From NCBI RefSeq assembly GCF_030013595.1, contig NZ_CP122768.1: DNA of 64,000 bases. One strand, written 5' to 3'. This DNA comes from Escherichia coli (GTDB taxonomy: Bacteria; Pseudomonadota; Gammaproteobacteria; Enterobacterales; Enterobacteriaceae). A program made the position numbers and the translations under genes. This document shows, piece by piece, positions 7,785 through 49,179 of the stretch. Each line of letters starts with the position of its first letter. The first letter of the stretch is position 1. The notes under the pieces are model-generated. The model worked only from the letters and a program-made list of their open reading frames with translations, had not been told where the DNA came from and searched no databases.

Positions 7785-8810
7785 TTATATTTTTTCGATC
7801 TCGACCAGATTAGTGTGCTGCGGGTTTCCCTTCGCCAGTGGTGAAGGGCGCAGAGTGGTTAGCGTATTCACACAGCCGCCATGGTCGATTTTATCGCCAG
7901 ACATATTGGCCTCGTGCCAGGCTCCCTGGCCCATAGCGCTAACCCCAGGGAGAATGCGTGGTGTTACTTTGGCTGGTAGCCGAACTTCGCCACGATGGTT
8001 AAACACCCGCACCATATCGCCGTTGGCAATCCCACGTTTCTGTGCATCTATAGGGTTGATCCACACCTCCTGACGGCAGGCTTCCTTCAGGACATCAATA
8101 TTGCCGTAGGTCGAGTGGGTACGGGATTTGTAATGGAAACCAAACAGTTGCAGTGGGAAGGTTCTACGTTCAGGGGAGTCCCAGCCTTCAAAGGTTGAGG
8201 CATAAACTGGCAGTGGGCTTATCACTTCATCTTTTTCCAGTTCCCAGGTACGGGCAATTTCCGCCAGCTTGCTGGAATAAATTTCAATCTTACCGGAAGG
8301 CGTTTTAAGTGGATTTGCCTCGGGGTCGTCACGAAATGCTTTGTAGGCGACAAAATGACCATTGGGATCTTTACGCTTATAGATACCCATTTTTTTCAGT
8401 TCGTCGTAAGACGGTAACGCCGGATCTTTGGCAAGCATTTTGGCGTACAGATGTTGTAACCATTGTTCCTGCGTGCGACCTTCTGTGAACTTTTGATAGA
8501 CGTCAGGTCCAAGACGTTTCGCGACTTCACTCAGGATCCAGTAAATCGGTTTGCGTTCGAATTTTTCGCTGGTGACTGGCTGAAGGAAAATGAGATATCC
8601 CATGTTACCTGCGTAGTCGTTAGGAATAATATCTTCCTGCTCAACGGTCATCAGGTCTGGCAGCAGAATGTCGGCATATTTTGCCGATGAGGTCATAAAG
8701 TTTTCGATGACCACAATCATTTCGCATTTCGATTCGTCCTGCAGAATTTCATGCGTTTTGTTGATGTCAGAATGCTGATTAACCAGGGTATTTCCCGCGT
8801 AGTTCCAGAT
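7785..8810 (-). pseudogene. ynfE: ynfE C-terminal fragment (gene split by insertion at 8811)
   Basis: In-frame ynfE sequence from codons I-W-N-Y (8799-8810) to stop at 7785; ORF track upstream extension 8811-8951 is element DNA read in the wrong context. Confidence 0.85.
8801..8810. repeat. left copy of 10-bp direct repeat AGTTCCAGAT flanking the ynfE insert (att core or target duplication)
   Basis: Identical 10-mer at 18242-18251; both copies encode ynfE residues IWN. Confidence 0.8.
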
Positions 8811-8876
8811 GGACTCCACTGTCAGACGGATGGACGGACTTGAAGTAGTTGACTCAACGCTACTTAAGGTCCTGAT

Positions 8877-10485
8877 ATGACTGACATTAACTATGATAAT
8901 ACTGTATATCCATCCAGCTCTTTCTCTGGGTCTCCCTATCTGTATGGGCAAGTCTACACCTCAAGTCCTGACACAAGGCTGACACAAATCAATCTACTCA
9001 GCGTAGCTAAGCCTCAGTTAGTCCGTAGAGCCAATGGTCGATATACTATCCGCTTCAGACTCAAGGGACAGACCACACCGTTTCTTTCAGTATCGACCCG
9101 AAGCACAGACAGGAGAGTAGCCACAATGCGTCAGAGAGAGCTTGCAGCCACAGCTAAGGCCTTCATGTTGGATAGGCCTGAAGTCTCACTACAGGAGCTT
9201 ACAGAGCATCTCCGGTCTATGGCTGAGCAGTTCCTGACAGACGCTAGTGACGATTACTGGAATGGACTTGAGGTCGCTACTTTGGTGGACGAGAAGTCCA
9301 ACCTGAAGGAGCTAGCCGCTACGCAAGCCTTGAGTCTGGACCAGCAGAAGGGCATAAGGTTAGCGCTTGAAGTCCTGACCGCAGCACAGCAGAGGGTAGA
9401 TACTGGTGATACGTCCAGTCTAATCAAGCTGATTGGTGGTGGCGTAAGCCAGCTTACTGATGGAGATGACAATAACCTTACTAATAACTCAACTATATGC
9501 GACTCTACGTTGATTCTGAGGAACGAGCAGGGGGTCAGCCCGCAAGTATTCACGAGAGAGCGCCAACCATCTGTAGTTTTTTCAAGCCTAGTGTCCTCAC
9601 TGCTGGCTGAGAAGGTCCAGACCCTGAAGTCCTCCAGCTACAAGGACCTGTCGTCCTCACTGAATACCGTCTCTCGGTTTCTGCCTGAAGATATGGACCT
9701 GATGTCCCGCTCTGAGTGGCTGGCAGTGAGGGACGCTATGCTGGCTGCTGAGGTGAGACCATCGACAATCAACAAGCTGCTGACCAAAGCGAAGATGTGT
9801 CTCGATTATGGCCTGATGAATGGGCAACTTGAGGGCCGCAACCCTATTGAACGGATGAAGCTGACCAAGGATACCGACTCCAAGCGCAGAGCGTTCACAG
9901 ACGAGGAGCTGGAGAGACTTCTGGTCCGTGTTGAGGCTGAGTATCAGTTCACACGACACACGGCTCACACGACCTCTGAGGCCCGTAGATGGGCGTCTCT
10001 GGTGTCTGTGGTCACTGGCGCGAGGTCTGCTGAGGTCTGCCACCTGACTAAACGTGACGTTGTAACCTTGGACAATGGACTGGTCTGTATCGACATCAAT
10101 GAAGATGGGGACGGGAAGTCTGTGAAGAACAAACATTCAGTCCGACTTGTGCCGTTAACCGATGGGGCCTGTGGTTTCAGCCTGAAGTCCTTCCTCAAAT
10201 GGGTAGACACTCAGCCTGCTGATGGTCCCCTCTTTGGTATGACTCCGAGTGCCTACTCTAGTTGGTTTAACTCTAGGGTCCTGACTGAGGCCCTAGGAGA
10301 CGCTGAGAACGTTTCTCCACAGTCTGAGACATTGGCTGGCGACCCGAATGAAAGAGCGTGGAGTCAATCTGGTGGACGCTCAAGGCATCTTAGGTCACAG
10401 CAGTCAGTCCATTACGTATGACCTGTACGGGAAAGGACACGCTGTTGGTAGGCTGGCTGAGGTGCTGAAGACAGCTTTACTTTAA
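8877..10485 (+). pseudogene. tyrosine recombinase/integrase, apparently frameshifted near 10297-10330
   Basis: N-terminal arm-binding-like segment (GRYTIRFRLKG...STRSTDRRVA); catalytic domain residues in frame A up to 10421; conserved HSLRHWLATRM...LGHSS...YDLYGKGH C-terminus is in the +1 frame ending at 10485. Confidence 0.65.
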
Positions 10486-10644
10486 GTAGGAAGACCCAAG
10501 GTGGAGACCATATACGGCTTGATGGTTGAGACCTTGGGTCACTGAAGTCTGACTGAAGTTAGGGAGGGTGATAATAATCATAATCCCTCCTGACTATAGG
10601 CCCACTGGTTCGCCTTCGGCTGTCCGACTCTAAGTCTGTCTGTG

Positions 10645-10776
10645 GTCTTATTTAAACTGGTTCCCTAACTCAGGTCCTCCAACTTGGTGTCTTATTTAAA
10701 CTGGTTCCCTAACTCAGGTCCTCCAACTTGGTGTCTTATTTAAACTGGTTCCCTAACTCAGGCCCCTCCAAATTTC
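10645..10776 (+). repeat. 44-bp tandem direct repeat, about 2.7 copies (candidate iterons/origin or regulator binding array)
   Basis: Unit GTCTTATTTAAACTGGTTCCCTAACTCAGGTCCTCCAACTTGGT at 10645-10688 and 10689-10732, third copy diverges after about 30 bp. Confidence 0.8.
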
Positions 10777-10792
10777 GTTGTCTGTCAGCGAC

Positions 10793-10818
10793 TTAAATAT
10801 CCCCTCACCTTAGAAGAG
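10793..10818 (+). promoter_or_regulatory. phage single-subunit-RNAP-type promoter P1 (class A, CCCCTCAC upstream)
   Basis: TTAAATATCCCCTCACCTTAGAAGAG; T7-supergroup -17..+6 architecture, predicted +1 G at 10813. Confidence 0.55.
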
Positions 10819-10833
10819 TTTAGGGTTCAGACC

Positions 10834-10857
10834 CTTAACTATCACCTTAGGAGAGAC
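10834..10857 (+). promoter_or_regulatory. phage single-subunit-RNAP-type promoter P2 (class B, AACTATCAC upstream)
   Basis: CTTAACTATCACCTTAGGAGAGA; predicted +1 G at 10850; 45 bp upstream of ORF 10902. Confidence 0.55.
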
Positions 10858-10901
10858 GGGCCGTCCTCCACCCAATCAAAACCTTAAGAGGAGGACCATA
10901 C

Positions 10902-11402
10902 ATGGCTATTAAAATTCAGTGCTACACCGAGTCCGACAATGCGGCTTTCTTCGGTGACGATTCCGACCTCCAGCACCAGCTACCAGCACCGACATATGAC
11001 GAACCTAAGGCCCGCACAGGTAAGCCTCCTGTGGTCATCGACAACCGGGCTGTCCGTGCGTGGCTGATTGAGACTGGGTGTCTCTCCTATACGCAGCTTG
11101 TTGAGGCGTACCCGTGGGCTGACGATGTGTTCACAGGACTCTCACGGGCTACCAGTGGCGCTGTCGGTGCTGGACTCCCGGTATCTAAGGCGTACCTGTT
11201 CTCTGCCTTATATGGCACCAACGACATCTTCTCCCGTAACACAGCCAAATCCTACGCTGACATCACTGGGCGTTCACCGTCTCCTCGCTACCTGCGCCAC
11301 GTCAATAGCGTGCTTCAGGCTACGGCTGTGAATCTGGCTAAGGTTCTGAAGGACCGAGGGGATTTCACATGGTGGGATTACAACGATCAGTGCCTGTCCT
11401 GA
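10902..11402 (+). CDS. hypothetical protein, first gene downstream of P1/P2
   Basis: 166-aa ORF with strong RBS AAGAGGAGG; no family recognised. Confidence 0.6.
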   Translation: MAIKIQCYTESDNAAFFGDDSDLQHQLPAPTYDEPKARTGKPPVVIDNRAVRAWLIETGCLSYTQLVEAYPWADDVFTGLSRATSGAVGAGLPVSKAYLFSALYGTNDIFSRNTAKSYADITGRSPSPRYLRHVNSVLQATAVNLAKVLKDRGDFTWWDYNDQCLS

Positions 11403-11424: not shown

Positions 11425-11448
11425 GAATACCCCCTCACTATAGGGACA
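11425..11448 (+). promoter_or_regulatory. phage single-subunit-RNAP-type promoter P3 (class A; T3-like CC at -11/-10)
   Basis: GAATACCCCCTCACTATAGGGACA; 13/13 match to T7 consensus from -9 to +4 (CTCACTATAGGGA). Confidence 0.7.
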
Positions 11449-11451
11449 CCC

Positions 11452-11477
11452 CCTAAACTATCACTATAGGGGGGACC
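11452..11477 (+). promoter_or_regulatory. phage single-subunit-RNAP-type promoter P4 (class B)
   Basis: CTAAACTATCACTATAGGGGGGACC; TCACTATAGGG core. Confidence 0.65.
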
Positions 11478-11712
11478 AACCTTGCCTCTGCTTCTGATGC
11501 GTCAGAACACGCGAGGTCCTCCCGACATTAAGTATTCTCCTAAGTAATCAAGGCCCGTGACCGCCTCTGACAGACCTCCTGTATCGACCTCCAGCTCGTT
11601 AGCGTTCTTTAGTCGTCTCGGTTAGTAGGTAACCGGCTCATTTAAACCGTCTGGTCTGTTTCCTCCGGCTCTACAAAAATAATGTCCATCATTTTTTAAT
11701 GGACACTATCGT

Positions 11713-12360
11713 ATGAAACACCGGACCTGGATCACTGAAGCTTTACGTCTTCACTTTGAAGAACATTTACCCCGGGTTGTGGCCGGGCGTCGCCTGGGTG
11801 TACCAAAATCAACAGTTTGTAGTATGTTCGTGCGCTTTCGGAGAGCTGGCCTTTCGTGGCCTTTGCCCGCAGGCATGTCGGAGCAGGAACTTGATGCCTG
11901 CCTTTACGGACAATTTTCCACGGTACCAGTCGTACGTCCTGAAAGCACCGTTATATCCGAAGCCCCCGTGGTAAAAAAACGTCCCCGGCGGCCCAACTTC
12001 CCTTATGAGTTTAAAATCGCCTTAGTGGAGCAGTCACTGCAGCCCGGAGCCTGTGTGGCGCAGATCGCCCGGGAAAACGGAATCAACGATAACCTGCTCT
12101 TCAACTGGCGCCATCAATACCGGAAAGGTGGCCTGCTGCCTTCCGGAAAAAATATGCCGGCACTGCTTCCCGTGACGTTAACGCCGGAGCCGGATAATAA
12201 AATCCCGGCCCCCGCACAGGAACCAGAGCAGATAAATACACCGTCCGACAGTCTGTGTTGTGAGCTGGTTCTGCCGGCCGGAACTCTCAGGCTTAAAGGT
12301 AAACTGACGCCGGCGTTATTACAGACACTTATCCGCGAAATAAAAGGGAGCAGCCACTGA
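11713..12360 (+). CDS. IS66 accessory protein (orf1/TnpA-like)
   Basis: 215 aa, first ORF of IS66 triad; identical to copy-2 ORF. Confidence 0.8.
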   Translation: MKHRTWITEALRLHFEEHLPRVVAGRRLGVPKSTVCSMFVRFRRAGLSWPLPAGMSEQELDACLYGQFSTVPVVRPESTVISEAPVVKKRPRRPNFPYEFKIALVEQSLQPGACVAQIARENGINDNLLFNWRHQYRKGGLLPSGKNMPALLPVTLTPEPDNKIPAPAQEPEQINTPSDSLCCELVLPAGTLRLKGKLTPALLQTLIREIKGSSH

Positions 12361-12707
12361 TGATATCTCTCCCTGCAGGTTCGCGTATCTGGCTGGTTGC
12401 AGGTATCACCGATATGCGAAATGGCTTTAACGGCCTGGCATCAAAAGTTCAGAACGTCCTGAAGGATGACCCGTTCTCCGGACACCTGTTCATCTTCCGC
12501 GGACGCCGGGGTGACCAGATAAAAGTGTTGTGGGCTGACAGTGACGGACTGTGCCTCTTCACCAAACGCCTGGAGCGGGGCCGCTTCGTCTGGCCAGTCA
12601 CCCGTGACGGCAAGGTGCACCTTACTCCGGCTCAGTTATCCATGCTTCTTGAAGGTATCAACTGGAAGCACCCGAAACGAACGGAACGCGCTGGAATCCG
12701 CATATAA
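12360..12707 (+). CDS. IS66 Orf2 (TnpB-like)
   Basis: 115 aa, overlapping start with preceding stop (ATGA); typical IS66 orf2. Confidence 0.8.
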   Translation: MISLPAGSRIWLVAGITDMRNGFNGLASKVQNVLKDDPFSGHLFIFRGRRGDQIKVLWADSDGLCLFTKRLERGRFVWPVTRDGKVHLTPAQLSMLLEGINWKHPKRTERAGIRI

Positions 12708-12726
12708 CCCGTTGTAAAGTGAGGAT

Positions 12727-14298
12727 ATGGACACCTCACTTGCTCATGAGAACGCCCGCCTGCGGGCACTGTTGCAGACGCAACAGGACACCATCCGCCA
12801 GATGGCTGAATACAACCGCCTGCTCTCACAGCGGGTGGCGGCTTATGCTTCCGAAATCAACCGGCTGAAGGCGCTGGTTGCGAAACTGCAACGTATGCAG
12901 TTCGGTAAAAGCTCAGAAAAACTTCGTGCAAAAACCGAACGGCAGATACAGGAAGCACAGGAGCGAATCAGCGCACTTCAGGAAGAAATGGCGGAAACGC
13001 TGGGTGAGCAATATGACCCGGTACTGCCATCCGCCCTGCGCCAGTCTTCAGCCCGTAAACCGTTACCGGCCTCACTTCCCCGTGAAACCCGGGTTATCCG
13101 GCCGGAAGAGGAATGCTGTCCTGCCTGTGGTGGTGAACTCAGTTCTCTGGGATGTGATGTGTCAGAGCAACTGGAGCTTATCAGCAGCGCCTTTAAGGTT
13201 ATCGAAACACAACGTCCGAAACAGGCCTGTTGCCGGTGCGACCATATCGTACAGGCACCAGTACCTTCAAAACCCATTGCACGCAGTTATGCCGGAGCGG
13301 GGCTTCTGGCCCATGTTGTCACCGGGAAATATGCAGACCATCTGCCGTTATACCGCCAGTCAGAAATATACCGTCGTCAGGGAGTGGAGCTGAGCCGTGC
13401 CACACTGGGGCGCTGGACAGGTGCTGTTGCTGAACTGCTGGAGCCGCTGTATGACGTCCTGCGCCAGTATGTGCTGATGCCCGGTAAAGTCCATGCTGAT
13501 GATATCCCCGTCCCGGTCCAGGAGCCGGGCAGCGGTAAAACCCGGACAGCCCGGCTGTGGGTCTACGTCCGTGATGACCGTAACGCCGGTTCACAGATGC
13601 CCCCGGCGGTCTGGTTCGCGTACAGTCCGGACCGGAAAGGTATCCATCCACAAAATCACCTGGCCGGTTACAGCGGTGTGCTTCAGGCCGATGCTTACGG
13701 TGGTTACCGGGCGTTATACGAATCCGGCAGAATAACGGAAGCCGCGTGTATGGCTCATGCCCGGAGAAAAATCCACGATGTGCATGCAAGAGCGCCCACC
13801 TACATCACCACGGAAGCCCTGCAGCGTATCGGTGAACTGTATGCCATCGAGGCAGAGGTCCGGGGCTGTTCAGCAGAACAGCGTCTGGCGGCAAGAAAAG
13901 CCAGAGCCGCGCCACTGATGCAGTCACTGTATGACTGGATACAGCAACAGATGAAAACACTGTCGCGTCACTCAGATACGGCAAAAGCGTTCGCATACCT
14001 GCTGAAACAGTGGGATGCACTGAACGTGTACTGCAGTAATGGCTGGGTGGAAATCGACAACAACATCGCAGAGAACGCCTTACGGGGAGTGGCCGTAGGC
14101 CGGAAAAACTGGATGTTCGCGGGTTCCGACAGCGGTGGTGAACATGCGGCGGTGTTGTACTCGCTGATCGGCACATGCCGTCTGAACAATGTGGAGCCAG
14201 AAAAGTGGCTGCGTTACGTCATTGAACATATCCAGGACTGGCCGGCAAACCGGGTACGCGATCTGTTGCCCTGGAAAGTTGATCTGAGCTCTCAGTAA
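12727..14298 (+). CDS. IS66-family DDE transposase (Orf3/TnpC)
   Basis: 523 aa with leucine-zipper-like N-terminus, CxxC...CxxC zinc motif and DDE region. Confidence 0.85.
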
Positions 14299-14582
14299 AT
14301 ATCAATACGGTTCTGACGAGTCGCTTACGTTAGTAGCTCGTCTACTCACTACATTGGCTTAAGTCTATCACCGCTCACCATCTGGAGTCCTTACAGCTCG
14401 TCCTGACATGCGGTCTCACCTTATATGCACATGGAGAACATGGCCACTCCAGACCAACACTAATCAACATTAACCCTATTCACTTTCGTTAAGCATTTTT
14501 TGGTGGGTCCGTTTGGATGCATTGAATAGGTGCGGACTCCACGTGGAGACAGAAAGTGCTTTACTAAAGGAGCATCCTTTAT

Positions 14583-14972
14583 ATGACTATTAAATCCATC
14601 GTTATCAACGGTAAGACCATCCTGTCTACACCTAACGCCATCAATGAGGGTGTCTGGTTCGACATGCTTGAGGTCCATCAAGCTGCTGGCTTGCCTGCTA
14701 ACAAGACGTTCTCACAGTGGCGCAGCCGACAGTCTCGTGCATTAGAAGAGGCTGGAGAGGTGTCGTTTGACAGTGTACAGAAGACCCTGTGTGGCAGCTT
14801 TGTGGCAGTGCTGGCCTACCTTATGTGGGCGGACCTTACTCTCTGGCTGGCGGTGGTTCGTTACGTTGCGTCTGAGACTATCGGCGTCCTGCCTGACCGC
14901 TTCAAGTCTATCGACGGTGATAACCCCGAGTTAGAAATGTCAGAGGATAACAGCGAGTGGGAGGACTTCTAA
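14583..14972 (+). CDS. KilA-N domain protein (short)
   Basis: 129 aa; N-terminal motif WFDMLEVHQAAGLPANK...WLAVVRYV resembling KilA-N; strong RBS AAGGAG. Confidence 0.55.
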   Translation: MTIKSIVINGKTILSTPNAINEGVWFDMLEVHQAAGLPANKTFSQWRSRQSRALEEAGEVSFDSVQKTLCGSFVAVLAYLMWADLTLWLAVVRYVASETIGVLPDRFKSIDGDNPELEMSEDNSEWEDF

Positions 14973-14973
14973 G

Positions 14974-15714
14974 ATGACCATGAGCCAGCTTGAAGCATTA
15001 CCTATCGTCATCGAGGGTCATTCATTCATCTGCAACGACCAGCGCATGTGGAACCTGAACGAGATTCACCGAGTGTTAGGTCTTCCAGCAAGCAAGATGC
15101 CGTCTGAGTGGAATAACAAGATTCGCACACAACTTGACCGCTCCGGAAATTTCCGGACCGTGAATGGTGACGGCGGTGGTACATGGGCGACCGAGGCTGG
15201 GACCGTGGCTTATGCTATGTGGGTCTCTACAGATTTCTACCTGATGGTCATCAATGCTTTCATCTTTATGCGTAACGACGCAATCGTCCGAGAGCGTGTA
15301 GCGGTCAAACAGGCTGACGAGGCTAACGCTAACCTCTCCATCGCAGCACCTAAGGCAGACATCTTTGACGGTCGTCTGACCAATGGTGGCTCTGTTCCGT
15401 GGAACTGGGCGTGTAAATCTTTGGGTCTTGCCCCGATGAAACTGAAAGAGGGCTTGAAGCGCTCCGGTAAGTTCGTCCAGAAGTGGAACCCTGACAGTTA
15501 CGCCGACGAGCTTCGACCTCAGGAGAAGGCGTTCAGTATTGGACTATTCGTCACTAAGTCAGTCATGGGTAAAGACACATGGCAGGTGACAGCTAAAGGC
15601 TACGCATGGATGCAGGGGAACGCCCAGAAGTGGAGAGAGCTAATAGCTGATGGTGACCGCTTAAAGGCTGCTGAGCGTCGAGCACAGAAGCGTCTTAACC
15701 GTGGAGGTAAGTAG
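14974..15714 (+). CDS. KilA-N domain protein with C-terminal extension
   Basis: 246 aa; MWNLNEIHRVLGLP...NGDGGGTWATEAGTVAYAMWVSTDFYLMVI typical of KilA-N; start 2 nt after preceding stop. Confidence 0.6.
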   Translation: MTMSQLEALPIVIEGHSFICNDQRMWNLNEIHRVLGLPASKMPSEWNNKIRTQLDRSGNFRTVNGDGGGTWATEAGTVAYAMWVSTDFYLMVINAFIFMRNDAIVRERVAVKQADEANANLSIAAPKADIFDGRLTNGGSVPWNWACKSLGLAPMKLKEGLKRSGKFVQKWNPDSYADELRPQEKAFSIGLFVTKSVMGKDTWQVTAKGYAWMQGNAQKWRELIADGDRLKAAERRAQKRLNRGGK

Positions 15715-16146: not shown

Positions 16147-16638
16147 ATGTTATTCAACAACAACGACTGGAAACTATCAGTCACCGACATCAATCCCTAT
16201 GAAAATACTGTGAGTCTGGACGGTCAGTCCTATCCGCTGTCTCTGGCGATTAAGACCCTGATTCCGGGCTACCTGTCAGGCTTACCGTCCACCAGCCGCG
16301 AGGCGATGGAGTTACTGGAAGCTCTGGCTGAAGCTGGCGTGTCCATTGGCAACTTCTTCAGTAATGACCTGATGACCGCCTATGGTCGCCGCCAGCAGAA
16401 CAAGCGAGCCGAAGCTGAGCGTATTGCTAAAGAGCAGCGCATTCAGGCTGAGCGTATGCGTGAAGAGAACATGACTGATGCAGAGTGGCAGAAAGAGCTA
16501 CAGCGCCGTGAACAGGTCAAAGCTGAACGCCGGACCTATGGTGAGCACCTCCGCAGTGCTACCCATTCCGCTGGGCGCTCCCGTGCTTCTATGGTCGCTG
16601 ACATTGAGTCCACGGACAACTGGATGGACAGCCTCTAA
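16147..16638 (+). CDS. hypothetical charged coiled-coil protein (scaffold-like?)
   Basis: 163 aa; RBS AGGAG; C-terminal K/R/E-rich helical segment. Confidence 0.5.
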   Translation: MLFNNNDWKLSVTDINPYENTVSLDGQSYPLSLAIKTLIPGYLSGLPSTSREAMELLEALAEAGVSIGNFFSNDLMTAYGRRQQNKRAEAERIAKEQRIQAERMREENMTDAEWQKELQRREQVKAERRTYGEHLRSATHSAGRSRASMVADIESTDNWMDSL

Positions 16639-16704: not shown

Positions 16705-17700
16705 TTGATTATTATGACGATTAAAGACGCTTTCCAGTTCGGCATTGAGCCAGTACGTATCAGCGACACCGACAACATTCAGATTAACGAAGGTTTGCCA
16801 ACTAACGCAGACCCGCAGGTCTATGCCCTCCAGTTAGCTAAGACGGTTAAGGCTATGCTGAACGGTGTACTTAAAGACGCTCAAGAGAACATCCCGTTCC
16901 CTGTAGAAGTCCTGCCGACCCGCAATAGCCTGCCTACTCCAATCATTGCTCACACTCTGGCTGATCGCTCTGTGGTCGTTCCTGTCCGTGGTGGTAAGCG
17001 ACCTGAAGTCGTGACCGTTCCGTCTGGACAAGAAATCGTGGTCGAACCAATCGAGCAGGCTATTCTCATCTCTGAGCAGACCAAGCTCTGGGACGCCAAG
17101 TCATCCACCGGATTCACTCAGGGCACACTTCAGCAGGACGCTATGAACATCTGTGAGAATGTGGTCCGTACCATCAACGCTCGCATGGTCGACGTTCTGG
17201 AGTCCTCCAAACTGTTGAAGACCGTAGAGCTGCCAGTCCTGACTGGAAGCCTGACCACTAAGGCAGACGCTATCATGGACGCTCTGTTTGAGAACACCGA
17301 GTCCTCTTTCGGCTCTGAAGTGTCTGATTACGGCATCATCGCCCATGAGTCCCAACTGAAAGCGCTGTCCCGTCTGGCAGCTAAACAGGGCTTCTCTGGT
17401 GGAGACGCTATCGTGGATATGCTGGGTACCGACATCGCCTATTACAACGGTGAAGACAAGGGTGTATTCATGCTGGCTAAACGCTTCACGGCCCTGAGCT
17501 TCGGCTGCTTCCGTCACGACGGTGAGAATATTACGGTCGTCCTTTCACGTGATGGCGACTCTCAGTCCCACGACTTGGAAATCCTCGGTAAAGTGTTCGT
17601 TGTCGCTGAAGCTGCTACGACCATCAAGATGGGCACTGGCTCAGCTACTGCCGTCCTGCCTGTAGTCAAACGCCTGAAGTTCACCAAGACCGAAGCGTAA
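16705..17700 (+). CDS. hypothetical 331-aa protein (possible virion/structural protein; unverified)
   Basis: Long ORF with RBS AGGAG directly downstream of coiled-coil ORF; no motif recognised. Confidence 0.5.
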   Translation: MIIMTIKDAFQFGIEPVRISDTDNIQINEGLPTNADPQVYALQLAKTVKAMLNGVLKDAQENIPFPVEVLPTRNSLPTPIIAHTLADRSVVVPVRGGKRPEVVTVPSGQEIVVEPIEQAILISEQTKLWDAKSSTGFTQGTLQQDAMNICENVVRTINARMVDVLESSKLLKTVELPVLTGSLTTKADAIMDALFENTESSFGSEVSDYGIIAHESQLKALSRLAAKQGFSGGDAIVDMLGTDIAYYNGEDKGVFMLAKRFTALSFGCFRHDGENITVVLSRDGDSQSHDLEILGKVFVVAEAATTIKMGTGSATAVLPVVKRLKFTKTEA

Positions 17701-17844: not shown

Positions 17845-18000
17845 ATGTCTATGACTTCCGCAGACCTAAGGTCCCTCCTGACTCTGGTCTATAAACTCGT
17901 GTTCCTCTCTGTGGGTCTCTACATGGTTCTCTCTGGTCGACTCGGTGTGGATGTGTTCGACACTCTGTCTAAGGCTGTGGGTGGACTTCTAGGTCCTTAG
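17845..18000 (+). CDS. small hydrophobic protein (51 aa, one predicted TM helix)
   Basis: ATG 17845 with RBS GAAGGAGG; LVFLSVGLYMVLSG hydrophobic core; below ORF-track length cutoff. Confidence 0.4.
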   Translation: MSMTSADLRSLLTLVYKLVFLSVGLYMVLSGRLGVDVFDTLSKAVGGLLGP

Positions 18001-18241
18001 GTTTGGACTCACAGTGGGACCGATGATTTCTGACAGAAAAATGTGAATGACCATCTAATACATTAAGCCAGCAGACTTCCCCCCATAGTCCCGCCTCAAG
18101 TCCAGACCGAGGCCACCGGGGGTCCTGACCAGCCGTCTAGACATCCCGTCTAATGACACAAGTCTGGCACAAAGCCTGACACAAAGTCCTTGACTCAATG
18201 CAGGACCTCAGGCCTACTAAGGGTCCGCTTCAAGTCCTTGA

Positions 18242-18251
18242 AGTTCCAGAT
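18242..18251. repeat. right copy of 10-bp direct repeat AGTTCCAGAT
   Basis: Identical to 8801-8810; ynfE sequence resumes here. Confidence 0.8.
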
Positions 18252-19652
18252 GAACTTAATGGGCACATCCAGTTTATCTTTGCCGCGGACGCCGTCGCGG
18301 ATTGCCGTCATTTGCGGGCCATGATCGATAGCATCCGTCCAGCTGAAGCAGGAGATTGACGTTTTGACCGGATTATCCAGCACCGGTAGGCGTTCTATGG
18401 TAATGGTATAGGTCGATTCACGCGCGCCACTATTCCCGCCGCTGATGCCGACATTGCCCGTCAAAATAGGCAACATAGCAATAGCGCGTGCGGTCAGCTC
18501 ACCGTTTGCCTGGCGTTGCGGCCCCCAGCCCTGGCAGATATAAGCGGGTTTTGCTGTGCCAATTTCACGCGCCAGTTTGATGATACGGTCCACCGGGATA
18601 CCGGTAATTTGCGAAGCCCACTGCGGCGTTTTCGCTGTTTTATCGTCACCTTCACCAAGAATATAGGCTTTATAGTGACCATTTTTTGGTGCATCTGCGG
18701 GTAAGGTTTTTTCGTCATAGCCGACGCAGTATTTATCAAGAAAAGGTTGATCAACGAGATTTTCGTTAATCAATACCCAGGCAATACCCGCAACCAGCGC
18801 GGCATCGGTGCCCGGGCGAATAGGAAGCCATTCGTCTTCACGACCGGCAGCCGTATCGGTATATCGCGGATCGATAACAATCATTTTTGCGTTCGATTTC
18901 TCGCGCGCTTTTTCAAGAAGATAAGTGATGCCACCACCGCTCATGCGGGTTTCTGCCGGGTTGTTACCAAACATCACGACCAGCTTGCTGTTTTCAATAT
19001 CCGTGGTGCTGTTGCCATCATTACTGCCGTAGGTGTAGGGCATGGCACAGGAAATTTGCGCGGTGCTGTAGGAGCCATACTGGTTGAGTGAGCCGCCGTA
19101 GCAGTTCATCAGGCGTTTGACCGCCGAGGCGGATGGCGAAGAGCGGGTCATATTGCCGCCAACAATCCCCGAAGAGTACTGAATATATACAGCCTCATTG
19201 TCATATTGTTCGACGGTTTTTTTCAGGCTACTGGCGATAGTATCCAGGGCTTCATCCCAGCTAATCCGTTCGAATTTGCCTTCGCCGCGTTTGCCCACGC
19301 GTTTCATTGGGTAATTCAAGCGGTCGGGATGATTAATACGCCGACGGATGGAGCGACCGCGCAAACAGGCGCGTACTTGATGATTGCCATACTCATCGCT
19401 GCCGGTGTTGTCAGTTTCCACCCAGGTCACTTCATTATCTTTAACATGCAGACGAAGTGCACAGCGGCTACCACAGTTGACGGAACAGGCACCCCAGACC
19501 ACTTTCTCGCTGGCCTGTTGTACTGCTGCCGCTGCACTGCGCAGGGTGAACGGTAAAGAAAAACCGCCTGCAGCCAGCGCCAGAGAACCTATCGCGGTAG
19601 ATTTAACGAGTGTTCTGCGGCTGATGCCCACCATTTGTTCATTTTTGGACAT
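18243..19652 (-). pseudogene. ynfE: ynfE N-terminal fragment (Tat signal, catalytic subunit) ending at insertion junction
   Basis: 470 ynfE codons from MSKNEQMVGISRRTLVKS to IWN at 18243; ORF then runs 16 codons into element DNA to a stop at 18195. Confidence 0.85.
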
Positions 19653-25831: not shown

Positions 25832-27403
25832 TTACTGAGAGCTCAGATCAACTTTCCAGGGCAACAGATCGCGTACCCGGTTTGCCGGCCAGTCCTGGAT
25901 ATGTTCAATGACGTAACGCAGCCACTTTTCTGGCTCCACATTGTTCAGACGGCATGTGCCGATCAGCGAGTACAACACCGCCGCATGTTCACCACCGCTG
26001 TCGGAACCCGCGAACATCCAGTTTTTCCGGCCTACGGCCACTCCCCGTAAGGCGTTCTCTGCGATGTTGTTGTCGATTTCCACCCAGCCATTACTGCAGT
26101 ACACGTTCAGTGCATCCCACTGTTTCAGCAGGTATGCGAACGCTTTTGCCGTATCTGAGTGACGCGACAGTGTTTTCATCTGTTGCTGTATCCAGTCATA
26201 CAGTGACTGCATCAGTGGCGCGGCTCTGGCTTTTCTTGCCGCCAGACGCTGTTCTGCTGAACAGCCCCGGACCTCTGCCTCGATGGCATACAGTTCACCG
26301 ATACGCTGCAGGGCTTCCGTGGTGATGTAGGTGGGCGCTCTTGCATGCACATCGTGGATTTTTCTCCGGGCATGAGCCATACACGCGGCTTCCGTTATTC
26401 TGCCGGATTCGTATAACGCCCGGTAACCACCGTAAGCATCGGCCTGAAGCACACCGCTGTAACCGGCCAGGTGATTTTGTGGATGGATACCTTTCCGGTC
26501 CGGACTGTACGCGAACCAGACCGCCGGGGGCATCTGTGAACCGGCGTTACGGTCATCACGGACGTAGACCCACAGCCGGGCTGTCCGGGTTTTACCGCTG
26601 CCCGGCTCCTGGACCGGGACGGGGATATCATCAGCATGGACTTTACCGGGCATCAGCACATACTGGCGCAGGACGTCATACAGCGGCTCCAGCAGTTCAG
26701 CAACAGCACCTGTCCAGCGCCCCAGTGTGGCACGGCTCAGCTCCACTCCCTGACGACGGTATATTTCTGACTGGCGGTATAACGGCAGATGGTCTGCATA
26801 TTTCCCGGTGACAACATGGGCCAGAAGCCCCGCTCCGGCATAACTGCGTGCAATGGGTTTTGAAGGTACTGGTGCCTGTACGATATGGTCGCACCGGCAA
26901 CAGGCCTGTTTCGGACGTTGTGTTTCGATAACCTTAAAGGCGCTGCTGATAAGCTCCAGTTGCTCTGACACATCACATCCCAGAGAACTGAGTTCACCAC
27001 CACAGGCAGGACAGCATTCCTCTTCCGGCCGGATAACCCGGGTTTCACGGGGAAGTGAGGCCGGTAACGGTTTACGGGCTGAAGACTGGCGCAGGGCGGA
27101 TGGCAGTACCGGGTCATATTGCTCACCCAGCGTTTCCGCCATTTCTTCCTGAAGTGCGCTGATTCGCTCCTGTGCTTCCTGTATCTGCCGTTCGGTTTTT
27201 GCACGAAGTTTTTCTGAGCTTTTACCGAACTGCATACGTTGCAGTTTCGCAACCAGCGCCTTCAGCCGGTTGATTTCGGAAGCATAAGCCGCCACCCGCT
27301 GTGAGAGCAGGCGGTTGTATTCAGCCATCTGGCGGATGGTGTCCTGTTGCGTCTGCAACAGTGCCCGCAGGCGGGCGTTCTCATGAGCAAGTGAGGTGTC
27401 CAT
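25832..27403 (-). CDS. IS66-family DDE transposase (Orf3/TnpC)
   Basis: 523 aa identical to 12727..14298 product. Confidence 0.85.
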
Positions 27404-27422
27404 ATCCTCACTTTACAACGGG

Positions 27423-27770
27423 TTATATGCGGATTCCAGCGCGTTCCGTTCGTTTCGGGTGCTTCCAGTTGATACCTTCAAGAAGCATGGATAACTGAGC
27501 CGGAGTAAGGTGCACCTTGCCGTCACGGGTGACTGGCCAGACGAAGCGGCCCCGCTCCAGGCGTTTGGTGAAGAGGCACAGTCCGTCACTGTCAGCCCAC
27601 AACACTTTTATCTGGTCACCCCGGCGTCCGCGGAAGATGAACAGGTGTCCGGAGAACGGGTCATCCTTCAGGACGTTCTGAACTTTTGATGCCAGGCCGT
27701 TAAAGCCATTTCGCATATCGGTGATACCTGCAACCAGCCAGATACGCGAACCTGCAGGGAGAGATATCAT
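27423..27770 (-). CDS. IS66 Orf2 (TnpB-like)
   Basis: 115 aa identical to copy 1. Confidence 0.8.
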   Translation of the reverse strand: MISLPAGSRIWLVAGITDMRNGFNGLASKVQNVLKDDPFSGHLFIFRGRRGDQIKVLWADSDGLCLFTKRLERGRFVWPVTRDGKVHLTPAQLSMLLEGINWKHPKRTERAGIRI

Positions 27771-28417
27771 CAGTGGCTGCTCCCTTTTATTTCGCGGATA
27801 AGTGTCTGTAATAACGCCGGCGTCAGTTTACCTTTAAGCCTGAGAGTTCCGGCCGGCAGAACCAGCTCACAACACAGACTGTCGGACGGTGTATTTATCT
27901 GCTCTGGTTCCTGTGCGGGGGCCGGGATTTTATTATCCGGCTCCGGCGTTAACGTCACGGGAAGCAGTGCCGGCATATTTTTTCCGGAAGGCAGCAGGCC
28001 ACCTTTCCGGTATTGATGGCGCCAGTTGAAGAGCAGGTTATCGTTGATTCCGTTTTCCCGGGCGATCTGCGCCACACAGGCTCCGGGCTGCAGTGACTGC
28101 TCCACTAAGGCGATTTTAAACTCATAAGGGAAGTTGGGCCGCCGGGGACGTTTTTTTACCACGGGGGCTTCGGATATAACGGTGCTTTCAGGACGTACGA
28201 CTGGTACCGTGGAAAATTGTCCGTAAAGGCAGGCATCAAGTTCCTGCTCCGACATGCCTGCGGGCAAAGGCCACGAAAGGCCAGCTCTCCGAAAGCGCAC
28301 GAACATACTACAAACTGTTGATTTTGGTACACCCAGGCGACGCCCGGCCACAACCCGGGGTAAATGTTCTTCAAAGTGAAGACGTAAAGCTTCAGTGATC
28401 CAGGTCCGGTGTTTCAT
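27770..28417 (-). CDS. IS66 accessory protein (orf1/TnpA-like)
   Basis: 215 aa identical to copy 1. Confidence 0.8.
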   Translation of the reverse strand: MKHRTWITEALRLHFEEHLPRVVAGRRLGVPKSTVCSMFVRFRRAGLSWPLPAGMSEQELDACLYGQFSTVPVVRPESTVISEAPVVKKRPRRPNFPYEFKIALVEQSLQPGACVAQIARENGINDNLLFNWRHQYRKGGLLPSGKNMPALLPVTLTPEPDNKIPAPAQEPEQINTPSDSLCCELVLPAGTLRLKGKLTPALLQTLIREIKGSSH

Positions 28418-32470: not shown

Positions 32471-32528
32471 AAAAACGGCGGCAGAGCAGTCACGGAGTAA
32501 AACTGATACCGCCAAACGTCACCAGAAA
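32471..32528 (-). ncRNA. dicF: DicF small regulatory RNA (ftsZ antisense)
   Basis: Minus-strand sequence TTTCTGGTGACGTTTGGCGGTATCAGTTTTACTCCGTGACTGCTCTGCCGCCGTTTTT matches recalled DicF; located upstream of dicB. Confidence 0.8.
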
Positions 32529-38103: not shown

Positions 38104-38451
38104 CTTACATCCATCTCCATTAAGAAATCTTGCTATTGTTCTTATGGATCGTCTTTCTGACTGATTTCATATTGGCGAGGTAAAGGTAGTTAAGTAGAAT
38201 GGCTGCGGGTGCTTGAGGCTATCTGCCTCGGGCATGAACACCAAAGGCAGATAGAGAAAAGCCCCAGTTAACATTACGCGTCCTGCAAGACGCTTAACAT
38301 TAATCTGAGGCCAATTTCATGCTAGACACATGTAGGTTAGCCTCTTACGTGCCGAAAGGCAAGGAGAAGCAGGCTAGTGTTAACACCAAGCTGTAATGTC
38401 CCCTTTGAACCATTCTAAAATGTCCCCAGACAATTCTCTGGGGGATTTTTC

Positions 38452-45111: not shown

Positions 45112-45411
45112 AAAAATTCCTTAATACTGATAACTTGGCGCACTATACACACGTTCCTGAAGAAAGCTATAGTTTTTTGATGGGGTTGAAGATGGCTGGA
45201 TGTCTAAAATAAACATTGCTTCATATGTTCAACTATGCGTTAATGATTGCGTCGGTTTGAAGAACAGACGATATACGAAGTAGTTTACTAAAGCAGTTCT
45301 CATTTCAGGTGTTATTCACTTATTCCTTCTTTGAGTCTCTCCAATTAAGTACGAAGTCGTTTCTGTTATGCAAACCATTTATGCCGAAAGGCTCAAGTTA
45401 AGGAATGTAGA

Positions 45412-45627
45412 ATGTCAAATAAAATGACTGGTTTAGTAAAATGGTTTAACGCTGATAAAGGTTTCGGCTTTATTTCTCCTGTTGATGGTAGTAAAGATGT
45501 GTTTGTGCATTTTTCTGCGATTCAGAATGATAATTATCGAACCTTATTTGAAGGTCAAAAGGTTACCTTCTCTATAGAGAGTGGTGCTAAAGGTCCTGCA
45601 GCAGCAAATGTCATCATTACTGATTAA
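45412..45627 (+). CDS. cspB: cold-shock protein CspB
   Basis: 71 aa [23 protein letters not shown]... Confidence 0.85.
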
Positions 45628-45990
45628 AATTCATCGCTCGTCTGTATACGATAACGAAGAAGGCTGATGCCTGAGTAGAGATACGGACAGAGTAGTGAAT
45701 ATTGGATTTCTTTAATAAAAATTAAGGAGGTCCAATACATGAAACAATGGTCAGCATATTTGGCAAAATCTTAATCAGGAAAAGTATGCTAACCATTGTG
45801 GTGAAGTGCAGGTTTGCTGCATGAATAGTTTTACAGCAGAAGCTAACTGCTGGCATGGCAAAACAAAGTGCGTAAGTGGATGACTCCCACAAAAAGCACC
45901 ACAATCTCAAACCCGCTCAGGCGGGTTTTTTATTATCTGCTTTAAATATATTATTAAAATATAAAAAATACTTGTTACTAATAAAATCAA

Positions 45991-47935: not shown

Positions 47936-48296
47936 GGTAATATTAAATCGGAACATTTACATCGCGGAATGTAAAATTTAAATAAAAAGGACTCTTCCAT
48001 GAGCCAAAATTCCTGAAATCTTAAGGGTAAGATAAAAGGTCTTAATCAGAATGACACGTTTTATTAATAAATAAAGCTATTCTTTCATTGCTGTGTTTTT
48101 CTTTACAAAAGTAATCCTTGCTATGGGTGGTTAATCATGCGTTAATGGTGTTCTGGTTTGTTACAAATTTATCTGAAGCAGTCATTGTTATAATTTTATT
48201 ATTTGTACCTCTTGAGATTTCCTTGTTGGTTTTTCTCTCTGATATTTTTTTCGGACCATTCTGCCCAAGGGCTAATTTCTTCAAAAGGTAATAATT

Positions 48297-48509
48297 ATGT
48301 CTAACAAAATGACTGGTTTAGTAAAATGGTTTAACCCTGAAAAAGGTTTTGGTTTCATCACGCCGAAAGATGGCAGCAAAGATGTGTTTGTCCATTTCTC
48401 AGCAATTCAGAGCAACGATTTCAAAACATTAACTGAGAATCAGGAAGTTGAATTTGGTATTGAGAACGGACCTAAAGGTCCTGCCGCTGTTCATGTAGTG
48501 GCGCTTTGA
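48297..48509 (+). CDS. cspI: cold-shock protein CspI-like
   Basis: 70 aa [23 protein letters not shown]... Confidence 0.85.
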
Positions 48510-49179
48510 GGTAGACAATATTACAAACCATATTCACTTTAGATGCCCGTGTTGTCATGGTTCCCAGTATAGAACATCATCTTTTGATGTTTCTGACATG
48601 AATCCTTTCGGGGCAAAATGTATCTTTTGTAAATCAATGATGATTACATTTGATAATATTTCACAATACTTAAATGCCAGCCGTCTGTCGTTGGATTTAA
48701 AAAAGTGAAAATGAAGGCTCCTTCGGGAGCTTTTTGGCTTGGTGTCTATTCGATGGATACTCACATACTACGGTAACATCATGAAAAAAATCATAGTTTT
48801 TTTTAACTCTGAACCAGCAGTGGTAGTGCCAGCGATGACTGGAGTTAACACCATCATGCGTGAATATCCAAATGGCGAAAAAACACACCTTACTGTAATG
48901 GCCGCAGGGTTTCCATCTCTGACCGGAGATCATAAAGTCATTTATGTAGCCGCGGATCGACATGTTACTTCAGAAGAAATTCTGGAAGCAGCAATAAGGC
49001 TCTTGAGTTGATTTGATGCTATTGCATTGATAATTCAGGAAAATTCTCTTTGTCTGTTTGTGTAAAATTTAGACTATCGTATGTTGATTATTGCGATGTT
49101 TCATCTTATCTTTTACACGTTTGCACCATATAATCGACTTACTGTGTAACTGGAAAGTCATAACAGACTAAAAGAGGAA

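What the first reader, a model, noticed from the sequence alone, without database searches (positions are those of the whole stretch)
10645..10776. 44-bp tandem repeat array between integrase and promoters (candidate origin or binding array)
About 2.7 head-to-tail copies of GTCTTATTTAAACTGGTTCCCTAACTCAGGTCCTCCAACTTGGT, the first two identical and the third diverging after about 30 bp, lie in a non-coding stretch right after the integrase and right before P1. Iteron-like arrays next to promoters are typical of replication origins or regulator/helper-protein binding sites in satellites and plasmids. Just upstream (10491-10538) is a 10-bp-stem hairpin GACCCAAGGT...ACCTTGGGTC that may terminate or process the integrase transcript.
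Basis: seen in the sequence. Interest (0 to 1): 0.5.

Follow-up and report, generated by a model that had tools for sequence, protein, structure and literature searches.

The report
Variable repeat array in T7-type satellite
The 44-bp repeats are real, but they are a copy-number-variable duplication (1 to about 6 copies) of a conserved non-coding element in a small, apparently undescribed E. coli island that looks like a capsid-encoding parasite of T7/K1F-type phages, not a plasmid-style iteron origin.

Summary
**Observation:** confirmed. Window 10645-10776 holds two identical 44-bp units and a third that diverges after 30 nt.

**Context:**
- The array lies in a ~6.6-kb island inserted in ynfE.
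- The island carries promoters matching the RNA-polymerase promoter consensus of K1F-type phages.
- It has a 28-bp stem-loop identical to one near those phages' right end.
- It has a ~100-nt mimic of their concatemer junction.
- It encodes its own HK97-fold capsid protein.
- No paper describing such a satellite was found.

**The array:**
- Near-identical relatives carry 1, 2, 3 or ~6 copies.
- More distant relatives lack the unit, and one lacks the whole block.
- The unit has no phage homologue, RNA fold, sigma-70 signal or recognisable cognate Rep protein.
- It evolves about 3.5 times slower than integrase third-codon positions.
- It contains one of the island's most easily melted AT tracts.

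**Best reading (about 0.4):** a dispensable, slippage-generated multiplication of a cis-acting DNA element in the helper-driven initiation/control zone beside the first helper-promoter pair.

**Rivals:** a neutral slippage product, or a protein-binding array.

**This copy is defective:** the integrase is frameshifted and an IS66 element is inserted.

The parts
8801..8811 (.). attL core AGTTCCAGATG (left boundary of the island inside ynfE)
   Evidence: 11-bp direct repeat with 18242-18252. The same core flanks the island in L024, L026, L040 and L041.
8877..10485 (+). Tyrosine integrase gene, a pseudogene in this copy (2-nt deletion near 10311 frameshifts the catalytic C-terminus)
   Evidence: PHROG integrase hit. 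Relatives encode 534-540 aa. Alignment to L003 shows the 2-nt gap and the out-of-frame tail.
10493..10540 (+). Two-stem hairpin just after the integrase stop (candidate transcript end or RNase III-type processing site)
   Evidence: Inverted repeat I4. 16 conserved pairs, a variable loop, and one compensatory C-G to A-U change in L007/L023.
10563..10590 (.). SL2: stem-loop GGAGGG-TGATAATAATCATAAT-CCCTCC, identical to an element near the right end of K1F/T7-type phages
   Evidence: 32-nt exact match to phage phiYIO1-1 with the loop inverted. 28-nt exact match in two 40-kb phage contigs, between the rightmost phage promoter and the gene-19.5 homologue. Alignment z about 20. Lowest diversity in the block, pi 0.018.
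10645..10776 (.). The 44-bp tandem array: units 10645-10688, 10689-10732 (identical) and 10733-10776 (diverged tail)
   Evidence: Copy number is 1-6 in relatives. Diversity 0.060 against 0.214 at integrase third-codon positions. Each unit starts with an AT tract in the least-stable ~1% of island 14-mers.
10796..10818 (+). Class-B promoter-like site AATATCCCCTCACCTTAGAAGAG (T3/T7-like CCCTCAC core); function inferred
   Evidence: Repeat families D13/D7 and pattern scan. The helper phage for this class was not identified.
10836..10858 (+). Class-A phage promoter 'P1', CTTAACTATCACCTTAGGAGAGA (K1F-type phage RNA polymerase)
   Evidence: 25.3 bits against a matrix built from 11 promoters of phage phiYIO1-1. 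Strong matches in the 64-kb window occur only inside the island. Present in every relative.
10902..11402 (+). ORF166, first gene downstream of the array; function unknown
   Evidence: ORF list. No Pfam, PHROG, NCBIfam or PADLOC hit and no tblastn hit in phages.
11426..11474 (+). Second promoter pair: class-B AATACCCCCTCACTATAGGGACA and class-A CTAAACTATCACTATAGGGGGGA ('P2')
   Evidence: (25.5 bits).
11629..14328 (+). IS66-family insertion interrupting the island (tnpA 11713-12360, tnpB 12360-12707, transposase 12727-14298)
   Evidence: Homology to intact relatives stops at about 11608-11628 and resumes at about 14329-14355. NCBIfam IS66 TnpA, TnpB and transposase hits are all above cut-off.
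14583..15714 (+). Variable middle module: ORF129 and a KilA-N/anti-repressor-like ORF246
   Evidence: PHROG hits for ORF246. Relatives carry KilA-N, Rha, AP2 or hypothetical genes at this position.
16147..16638 (+). ORF163, conserved charged and repeat-rich protein directly upstream of the capsid gene (scaffold-like by position; inferred)
   Evidence: Conserved in all relatives. No family hit.
16705..17700 (+). Major capsid protein, HK97 fold
   Evidence: AlphaFold2 model pLDDT 84.8. Foldseek top hits in PDB and BFVD are all phage capsids or encapsulins at probability 1.00. Distant homologues carry C-terminal Ig domains. No sequence hit in 50,697 phages.
17845..18000 (+). 51-aa hydrophobic small ORF at the position that gene 19.5 occupies in the phages (analogy by position only)
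   Evidence: phage layout.
18021..18120 (+). Concatemer-junction mimic: resembles the last ~33 nt of the phage right end plus the first ~65 nt of the terminal repeat; junction-equivalent at 18053|18054
   Evidence: 67-68 of about 103 positions identical to three phages, z 6.9-8.1. Conserved in all relatives examined, including L012 and L026.
18154..18186 (.). 12-bp repeats TGACACAAAGCC, probable integrase arm-type sites
   Evidence: TRF. Equivalent repeats lie next to att in L012 and L026. A related inverted copy lies at 8958-8984.
18242..18252 (.). attR core AGTTCCAGATG (right boundary of the island)

Best explanation
**Shown**
- The array is a copy-number-variable tandem duplication (a minisatellite, 1 to about 6 copies) of a 44-bp piece of a conserved, lineage-specific non-coding block.
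- The block lies between the integrase gene and the first pair of helper-phage RNA-polymerase promoters.
- The host element is a ~6.6-kb island in ynfE with the hallmarks of a satellite of K1F/T7-type phages: helper promoters, a helper right-end stem-loop, a concatemer-junction mimic, and its own HK97 capsid gene.

**Inferred**
- The unit acts at the DNA level as an easily melted AT-rich element (GTCTTATTTAAAC...) in the zone where helper-driven replication of the satellite starts.
- When the helper's RNA polymerase fires the adjacent promoters, negative supercoiling behind the polymerase and read-through transcription on the circular or concatemeric form would open this tract and the neighbouring SL2 loop. 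This would give the helper's T7-type helicase-primase and DNA polymerase entry without any satellite-encoded initiator.
- Extra copies arise by replication slippage or unequal recombination. They are tolerated, or mildly useful as additional melting sites, but are not required.
For: **Duplication and copy-number variation**
-. It is seen in two unit variants (periods 44 and 45). Copies are identical within an array but differ between arrays.

**Constraint**
- Unit diversity is 0.060 and block diversity 0.071, against 0.214 at integrase third-codon positions.

**DNA properties**
- The start of each unit and the SL2 loop are the least stable 14-mers of the region, in the least-stable ~1% island-wide.
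- SL2 occurs in either orientation in phages with its loop sequence preserved, which argues for a DNA-level, orientation-independent role for this block.

**No initiator**
- No satellite replication protein is recognisable, so replication must rely on the helper or host.
- T7-type systems need only a phage promoter, an AT-rich region, pac and a terminal repeat to replicate and package a plasmid (PMC13236587; PMC9860248).

**Position and parallels**
- The array sits immediately upstream of the first tandem helper-promoter pair.
- Other lineages carry different tandem duplications of AT-rich DNA at the same position: ~112 bp in L007/L023 and 26 bp in L011, the latter between two phage promoters.
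Against: - In T7 itself the AT-rich origin segment lies downstream of the promoters and is about 60 bp long (my own background knowledge). Here the tract is upstream and only about 12 nt per unit, and the unit overall is 43% GC.
- T7-type primase sites are not enriched.
- Relatives L012 and L011 lack the unit, and L026 lacks the whole block, yet all keep promoters, the capsid gene and the junction mimic. The element is therefore dispensable for the family's basic design.
- The low diversity could reflect a recent sweep or recombination rather than selection.
- No replication, binding or packaging data exist.
Confidence: 0.4

Rival explanations
1. Neutral or nearly neutral slippage product. The intergenic DNA tolerates length change, and T7-type replication and recombination readily duplicate and delete between short repeats. 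The number of copies has no function, and the unit is conserved only through linkage to the integrase/SL2 block or a recent spread.
For: - Copy number is 1-6 among near-identical islands, with identical copies within arrays.
- The unit is absent in L012, L011 and L026.
- It has no similarity to any phage sequence, no dyad-symmetric motif conserved between variants, and no RNA, promoter or terminator signal.
- Other unrelated tandem duplications occur in the same region in other lineages.
- The array sits at a module boundary where downstream sequence is swapped.
Against: - Unit diversity is about 3.5 times lower than at integrase third-codon positions, similar to positions 1+2.
- Duplications in three lineages all involve the AT-rich tracts, not random segments.
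- It is the only long tandem repeat in the island.
Confidence: 0.3
2. Array of binding sites for a protein: the helper's small terminase or another packaging-specificity factor, a conserved satellite protein, or a host nucleoid protein. It would tune packaging or expression according to the number of sites.
For: - The array lies 55 bp from SL2, a phage right-end element kept identical to the helper's.
- In T7/T3 the small terminase subunit recognises pacB in the concatemer (PMC9860248).
- The unit is constrained.
- A 44-bp period is close to four helical turns, so sites would lie roughly on one face (inference).
Against: - A helper protein should also have its site in the helper genome, yet the unit has no match in phage ends (z about 0) or in 50,697 phages.
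- The unit co-occurs with three different ORF1 types and with KilA-N, Rha, AP2 or hypothetical middle genes, so no variable satellite protein co-varies with it.
- The short palindromes CCAACTTGG and AACTGGTT are not conserved in single-copy or variant units.
Confidence: 0.2
3. Classical iteron origin: directly repeated sites bound by an element-encoded initiator, as in plasmids or lambda.
For: Direct repeats next to an AT-rich tract in a mobile element. ORF166 immediately downstream has unknown function.
Against: - The units are 44 bp, identical, and number 1-6 in close relatives.
- No Rep, primase or helicase is detectable with Pfam, PHROGs, NCBIfam or PADLOC.
- The unit occurs with ORF166, a 155-aa ORF or a 122-aa ORF downstream.
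- It is absent from plasmids.
Confidence: 0.04
4. RNA-level or transcription-level element: a terminator, pause site or insulator for host or phage RNA polymerase reading out of the integrase gene, or a small RNA.
For: It lies between a structured hairpin and the promoters, and read-through from the integrase gene is possible.
Against: - Folding z-scores are -1.0 (plus strand) and -0.2 (minus strand).
- There is no terminator-like or sigma-70-like site in the array.
- There is no Rfam hit even at E of 1 or less.
- By eye, no T7 class-II pause motif (ATCTGTT) is present in the unit.
Confidence: 0.05

Closest known systems
Engineered T7 phagemids / transducing plasmids (Chung & Hinkle 1990; used in PMC13236587 and PMC9860248)
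   Same: Small DNA that relies entirely on a T7-type helper. It carries phage-RNA-polymerase promoters, a region resembling the concatemer junction and terminal repeat, and no replication genes of its own.
   Different: This is a natural, chromosomally integrated element with an integrase and att sites and its own capsid gene. Its promoters match K1F-type rather than T7 consensus. Its AT-rich repeat lies upstream, not downstream, of the promoters. Function is not demonstrated.
Capsid-forming PICIs (cf-PICIs) and other phage satellites (P4, PICI, PLE, PICMI)
   Same: Integrase-bearing small island with helper-specific cis signals and, like cf-PICIs, its own HK97-fold capsid protein.
   Different: - About 6.6 kb with only about 5-6 genes.
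- No recognisable primase/rep, terminase small subunit, portal or master repressor.
- Expression is wired to the RNA polymerase of a virulent T7-like phage.
- The capsid protein has no sequence relative among 50,697 phages.
- Literature searches found no satellite of Autographiviridae.
T7 primary origin (tandem promoters phi1.1A/phi1.1B plus AT-rich region) and secondary origins phiOL/phiOR (textbook T7 biology, my own knowledge)
   Same: Tandem phage promoters next to AT-rich, easily melted DNA, at the first phage promoters after the early (integrase) gene.
   Different: The AT tract is upstream and short. There is no primase-site enrichment and no sequence similarity to phage DNA.
Plasmid/lambda iteron origins
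   Same: Head-to-tail direct repeats adjacent to AT-rich DNA.
   Different: The unit is twice the usual length, copies are identical, the number varies among close relatives, and there is no cognate initiator.
Bacterial VNTR/minisatellite loci in intergenic DNA
   Same: Perfect head-to-tail units, copy-number polymorphism among otherwise near-identical sequences, and concerted evolution within arrays.
   Different: It lies inside a constrained cis-regulatory block of a mobile element.

Membership tests
Iteron-type replication origin | Several short (about 17-22 bp) direct repeats whose number is conserved among relatives | tested here: not met
   The unit is 44-45 bp. Close relatives carry 1, 2, 3 or about 6 copies, and L012, L011 and L026 carry none.
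Iteron-type replication origin | Cognate initiator (Rep) gene in the element that co-varies with the repeats | tested here: not met
   No Rep, primase or helicase found with Pfam, PHROGs, NCBIfam or PADLOC. The unit occurs with three different downstream ORFs. ORF166 remains of unknown function.
Iteron-type replication origin | Adjacent AT-rich unwinding element | tested here: inconclusive
   A 12-nt AT tract inside each unit is in the least-stable ~1% of island 14-mers, but the unit overall is 43% GC.
T7-type origin (phage promoter plus AT-rich region) | Helper-RNA-polymerase promoter(s) at the site | tested here: met
   The class-B/class-A pair at 10796-10858 begins 20 bp after the array ends. 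P1 scores 25.3 bits against the phage matrix.
T7-type origin (phage promoter plus AT-rich region) | Extended AT-rich region downstream of the promoter, with a primase site | tested here: not met
   DNA downstream of P1 and P2 is not AT-rich. The AT tracts lie upstream. Primase pentamers are at background density.
T7-type origin (phage promoter plus AT-rich region) | Supports helper-dependent replication | not testable with these tools
   Needs infection experiments.
T7-type pac / concatemer-junction sequence | Sequence similarity to the helper's right end or terminal repeat | tested here: not met
   The unit against three phage end regions gives z about 0. It is met instead by 18021-18120 (z 7-8) and by SL2 (z about 20).
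VNTR / minisatellite | Head-to-tail near-identical units with copy-number polymorphism among close relatives | tested here: met
   The 6-copy count comes from a metagenome assembly and may be imprecise.
Phage satellite (the island as a whole) | Integrase and att sites; a small genome lacking most virion and replication genes | tested here: met
   6.28-6.83 kb between att cores, with integrase, a capsid gene and a few small ORFs.
Phage satellite (the island as a whole) | Cis signals matching a specific helper phage | tested here: met
   Helper promoters, SL2 and the junction mimic.
Phage satellite (the island as a whole) | Helper-dependent excision, replication, packaging and transfer | not testable with these tools
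   No free or virome-derived copies were found. All contigs examined were integrated.
cf-PICI | Own capsid module including portal, head-tail connectors and small terminase, plus PICI-type regulation and primase-rep | tested here: not met
   Only an HK97 capsid protein and a scaffold-like ORF are present. No other structural, terminase or rep genes were detected.

The most novel reading that the evidence does not exclude
The array, together with SL2, is the working replication-initiation or helper-recognition site of a previously undescribed family of minimalist, capsid-encoding satellites that parasitise virulent T7/K1F-type coliphages. These satellites would use the helper's own RNA-polymerase promoters (possibly for two helper groups) and a copy of its concatemer junction. 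Copy number of the 44-mer would tune how strongly the satellite replicates or competes with its helper.
Probability: 0.3. Interest if true: 0.75.

Novelty: new variant of a known kind. Interest (0 to 1): 0.45.

Why it matters
**The array alone** is modest: a minisatellite in a control region.

**Its setting matters more.** The evidence points to a family of ~6.6-kb E. coli/Enterobacterales islands that appear built to exploit virulent T7-like phages. I found no published description of such satellites.

If that is confirmed:
- It would extend satellite biology to the best-studied lytic coliphage group.
- It would be relevant to phage therapy with K1F/T7-type phages.
- It would offer a natural minimal replicon and packaging substrate for T7-type machinery.

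The array and its natural 1-6 copy series would then be a ready-made allelic series for asking which cis DNA the helper's replication or packaging apparatus uses.

Tried and rejected
1. **Homology of the 44-mer to phages.** BLAST against 50,697 phages, even at E of 10 or less, and Smith-Waterman against three phage end regions found nothing. It is also absent from plasmids. One genome per species gave three chance hits.
2. **T7 primase-site idea** (each unit begins GTGTC or TGGTC). The density equals the island background and is not consistent across relatives, so I rejected it.
3. **RNA structure, sRNA, terminator or sigma-70 promoter in the array.** No signal.
4. **The unit as a degenerate T3-like promoter.** Only about 9 of 23 positions match by eye and the spacing is off by one, so I rejected it.
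5. **Integrase arm-type site.** The arm repeats have a different sequence (CTGACACAAAG) and lie next to the att cores.
6. **Length-compensating stuffer.** Island length (6.28-6.83 kb) shows no relation to copy number.
7. **Free or packaged satellite genomes that would reveal termini.** Island-sized contigs L011, L012, L040 and L041 are all integrated copies. The IMG/VR hits are prophage-region calls from isolate genomes.
8. **Identifying the second helper for the class-B promoters.** A 16-mer scan of viral contigs gave only chance hits, and L027 is unrelated.
9. **First AlphaFold run with a shallow alignment.** It failed (pLDDT 51). A deeper alignment fixed it.
10. **Literature on the exact pacB position in T7/T3.** It was not retrievable.

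Full report
**1. The observation**

Window 10645-10776 holds a 44-bp head-to-tail repeat. TRF reports period 44, 2.9 copies, 97% matches and score 238, the strongest tandem repeat in the window. Units 10645-10688 and 10689-10732 are identical. The third (10733-10776) is 80% identical and diverges after about 30 nt. No ORF of 40 aa or more crosses 10486-10901 on either strand.

**2. Where it lies**

The window is E. coli-like chromosome. The array sits in a small island inserted in ynfE, between ynfF and ynfD.
- The att core is AGTTCCAGATG at 8801 and 18242.
- Relatives occur in 118-149 of 5,426 complete E. coli genomes, always chromosomal. None is on a plasmid.
- Intact relatives measure 6.28-6.83 kb between att cores.
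- They share one layout, all on one strand: integrase, non-coding block, a small ORF, a variable gene (KilA-N, Rha, AP2 or hypothetical), ORF163, ORF~329, then non-coding DNA and attR.
- The TIGER survey listed ynfE among genes interrupted by integrative elements but did not characterise the element (PMC7192596).
- The copy in the window is defective. A 2-nt deletion near 10311 frameshifts the integrase C-terminus. An IS66-family element is inserted between about 11629 and 14328.

**3. What the island is**

*Helper promoters.* The only phage hit for the region was a 32-nt exact match to the 40.5-kb phage phiYIO1-1, which has an endosialidase tailspike and a T7-like gene order. That phage's own promoters (11 copies) give the consensus CT(A/T)AACTATCAC(TA/CT)TAGG(G/A)A.
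- Every relative has such promoters before and after the first ORF, all pointing in the gene direction.
- In window-type islands each is preceded, 26-40 nt upstream, by a second promoter-like site: AATATCCCCTCACCTTAG and AATACCCCCTCACTATAGGGACA. Its CCCT at -11 to -8 resembles the T3 consensus, which I know from background knowledge. A phage using exactly this sequence was not found.

*Stem-loop SL2.* The element GGAGGG-TGATAATAATCATAAT-CCCTCC (10563-10590) is identical in two further ~40-kb phage contigs. There it lies between the rightmost promoter and the gene-19.5 homologue, a few hundred bp before the genome end. In phiYIO1-1 the loop is inverted.

*Concatemer-junction mimic.* Window 18021-18120 aligns with the phage concatemer junction, meaning the last ~33 nt of the right end plus the first ~65 nt of the terminal repeat. 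Identity is 67-68 of about 103 positions, z 6.9-8.1. The segment is conserved in all family members examined.

*Own capsid protein.* ORF331 is an HK97-fold major capsid protein.
- The AlphaFold2 model has pLDDT 84.8.
- All top Foldseek hits in PDB and BFVD are capsids or encapsulins at probability 1.00.
- It has no sequence relative in 50,697 phages. Its homologues are confined to Enterobacterales.

*No replication proteins.* No replication protein is recognisable.

*Engineered analogue.* T7 is known to replicate, package and transduce plasmids that carry a T7 origin, a pac site and a terminal repeat (PMC13236587; PMC9860248). The island looks like a natural, integrating, capsid-encoding counterpart for K1F-type helpers. 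Four literature searches found no description of satellites of T7-like phages. Helper-dependent mobilisation is inferred, not shown.

**4. What the array is**

*Copy number varies.*
- Window, L001, L003: 3 copies.
- L004: 2 copies.
- L005: 1 copy.
- A variant unit (CTGCGTCCTAAAC..., period 45 or 44) occurs as 1 copy (L006), 2 (L021, L022) and 3 (L020).
- L007 has 1.4 copies.
- Metagenome contigs have 2, 2, 3 and 6 copies. The count of 6 comes from a short-read assembly and may be inexact.
- Copies within an array are identical but differ between arrays. That indicates continuing expansion, contraction and homogenisation.

*The unit is lineage-specific.*
- L012 (79% integrase identity) keeps the hairpin and SL2 but lacks the unit.
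- L011, which has a different integrase and sits at a tRNA gene, lacks the unit.
- L026 goes from the integrase stop straight into a promoter pair and lacks the whole block.

*The unit marks a module boundary.* Downstream of it, L007 and L008 carry different sequence and a different first ORF.

*The unit is constrained.* Among 11 E. coli islands its diversity is 0.060 (block 0.071, SL2 0.018). This compares with 0.214 at integrase third-codon positions and 0.059 at positions 1+2.

*Intrinsic features.*
- 43% GC.
- Each unit begins with GTCTTATTTAAACT. Together with the SL2 loop, this is the least stable duplex of the region and falls in the least-stable ~1% of island 14-mers.
- No RNA-fold signal (z -1.0 and -0.2) and no sigma-70 or terminator pattern in the array.
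- No Rfam hit.
- No similarity to phage ends (z about 0) or to any phage.
- No primase-site enrichment.

*Parallel duplications elsewhere.* Other lineages show unrelated tandem duplications of AT-rich DNA at the same position: about 112 bp in L007/L023 and 26 bp in L011, the latter between two phage promoters.

**5. Mechanism**

*Shown.* The array is a minisatellite-type multiplication of a constrained but dispensable cis element. It lies next to the first helper-promoter pair of a T7-type satellite-like island.

*Inferred best reading (about 0.4).* The unit is an unwinding-prone DNA element of the helper-driven initiation and control zone. It would be opened by the intense transcription from the adjacent phage promoters and used by the helper replisome without any satellite initiator. 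Extra copies arise by slippage or unequal recombination and are not required.

*Against this reading.* The AT tract is short and lies upstream of the promoters rather than downstream. The block is absent in L026.

*Rivals.*
- A neutral slippage product (about 0.3).
- A protein-binding array for packaging or regulation (about 0.2). This is weakened because the helper genomes lack the sequence and no satellite gene co-varies with it.
- A classical iteron/Rep origin (about 0.04).
- An RNA or transcription element (about 0.05).

**6.

Sixteen pairs are conserved across eight relatives, the loop sequence drifts, and one pair shows a compensatory C-G to A-U change. A structural role is therefore supported. 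The two-stem shape with an internal loop resembles T7 RNase III sites, which I know from background knowledge; this was not tested. There is no T-run typical of an intrinsic terminator.

**7. Verdict**

The satellite and promoter context is right; the iteron-origin idea is not supported.
- The array itself is of moderate interest.
- The island it belongs to appears to be an undescribed kind of phage satellite and deserves direct experimental testing.

Noticed in passing
window 10796-10858 and 11426-11474: Phage promoters come in pairs. A T3/T7-like 'CCCCTCAC..TAG' site lies 26-40 nt upstream of each K1F-type 'AACTATCAC..TAGG' promoter. This suggests the island can be switched on by two helper groups with different RNA-polymerase specificity. 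L026 has a similar pair in the reverse order.
   Followed up: partly
window 18021-18120 (junction-equivalent at 18053|18054): A ~100-nt mimic of the helper phages' concatemer junction (right end plus the start of the terminal repeat), conserved in all family members. It is a likely terminase cutting and recognition site.
   Followed up: yes
window 16705-17700 and 16147-16638: The island encodes its own HK97-fold major capsid protein, with no sequence relative among sequenced phages. It is preceded by a conserved charged 163-aa ORF that could be a scaffold. Only the structural-gene pair (ORF163 + capsid) is shown to be shared between different integration modules: L011 has a different integrase, sits at a tRNA gene, and carries a DUF4145 gene.
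   Followed up: partly
window 10563-10590; L009 40046-40077; L014 8639-8662; L016 7192-7215: The SL2 stem-loop occurs in phages in both orientations with its 16-nt AT-rich loop preserved. This points to a DNA-level, orientation-independent role, or to a small mobile palindromic element. Its function in the phages is unknown.
   Followed up: partly
window 10311 and 11629-14328; second IS copy at about 25832-28417 (minus strand): This island copy is decayed: the integrase is frameshifted and an IS66-family element is inserted after P2. An inverted second set of ORFs of the same sizes (215, 115 and 523 aa) lies 11.5 kb to the right, so inversion or deletion between the two is possible. The identity of the second copy was not checked.
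   Followed up: partly
window 18186-18240 with 8812-8877: A sigma-70-like TTGACT...TACTAA lies in the right arm next to attR, pointing towards the att core. In the excised or packaged form it would face the integrase gene, so integration may separate the integrase from its promoter. Seen by eye only.
   Followed up: no
L007 about 8270-8480 and L023; L011 2528-2584; L026 7202-7249: Other family members carry their own unrelated tandem repeats. L007/L023 have a ~112-bp duplication of an AT-rich segment. L011 has 26-bp repeats between two phage promoters. L026 has a 14-bp x3.5 array just after the junction mimic, reminiscent of the short repeat arrays that flank T7-type terminal repeats.
   Followed up: partly
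window 17845-18000: A 51-aa hydrophobic ORF sits just upstream of the junction mimic, at the position gene 19.5 holds in the helper phages. I saw no sequence similarity by eye.
   Followed up: no
window 32476-32527, 38207-38373, 45251-45643, 48152-48536: Rfam hits to DicF, sok and two cspA thermoregulators, followed by large head/tail-sized ORFs from about 51 kb. This indicates a Qin-like or lambdoid prophage region to the right of the island, unrelated to the finding.
   Followed up: no
window 9173-9201: A weak match (15 bits) to the K1F-type promoter matrix lies inside the integrase coding sequence and is conserved in L005 and L007. Its significance is unknown.
   Followed up: no
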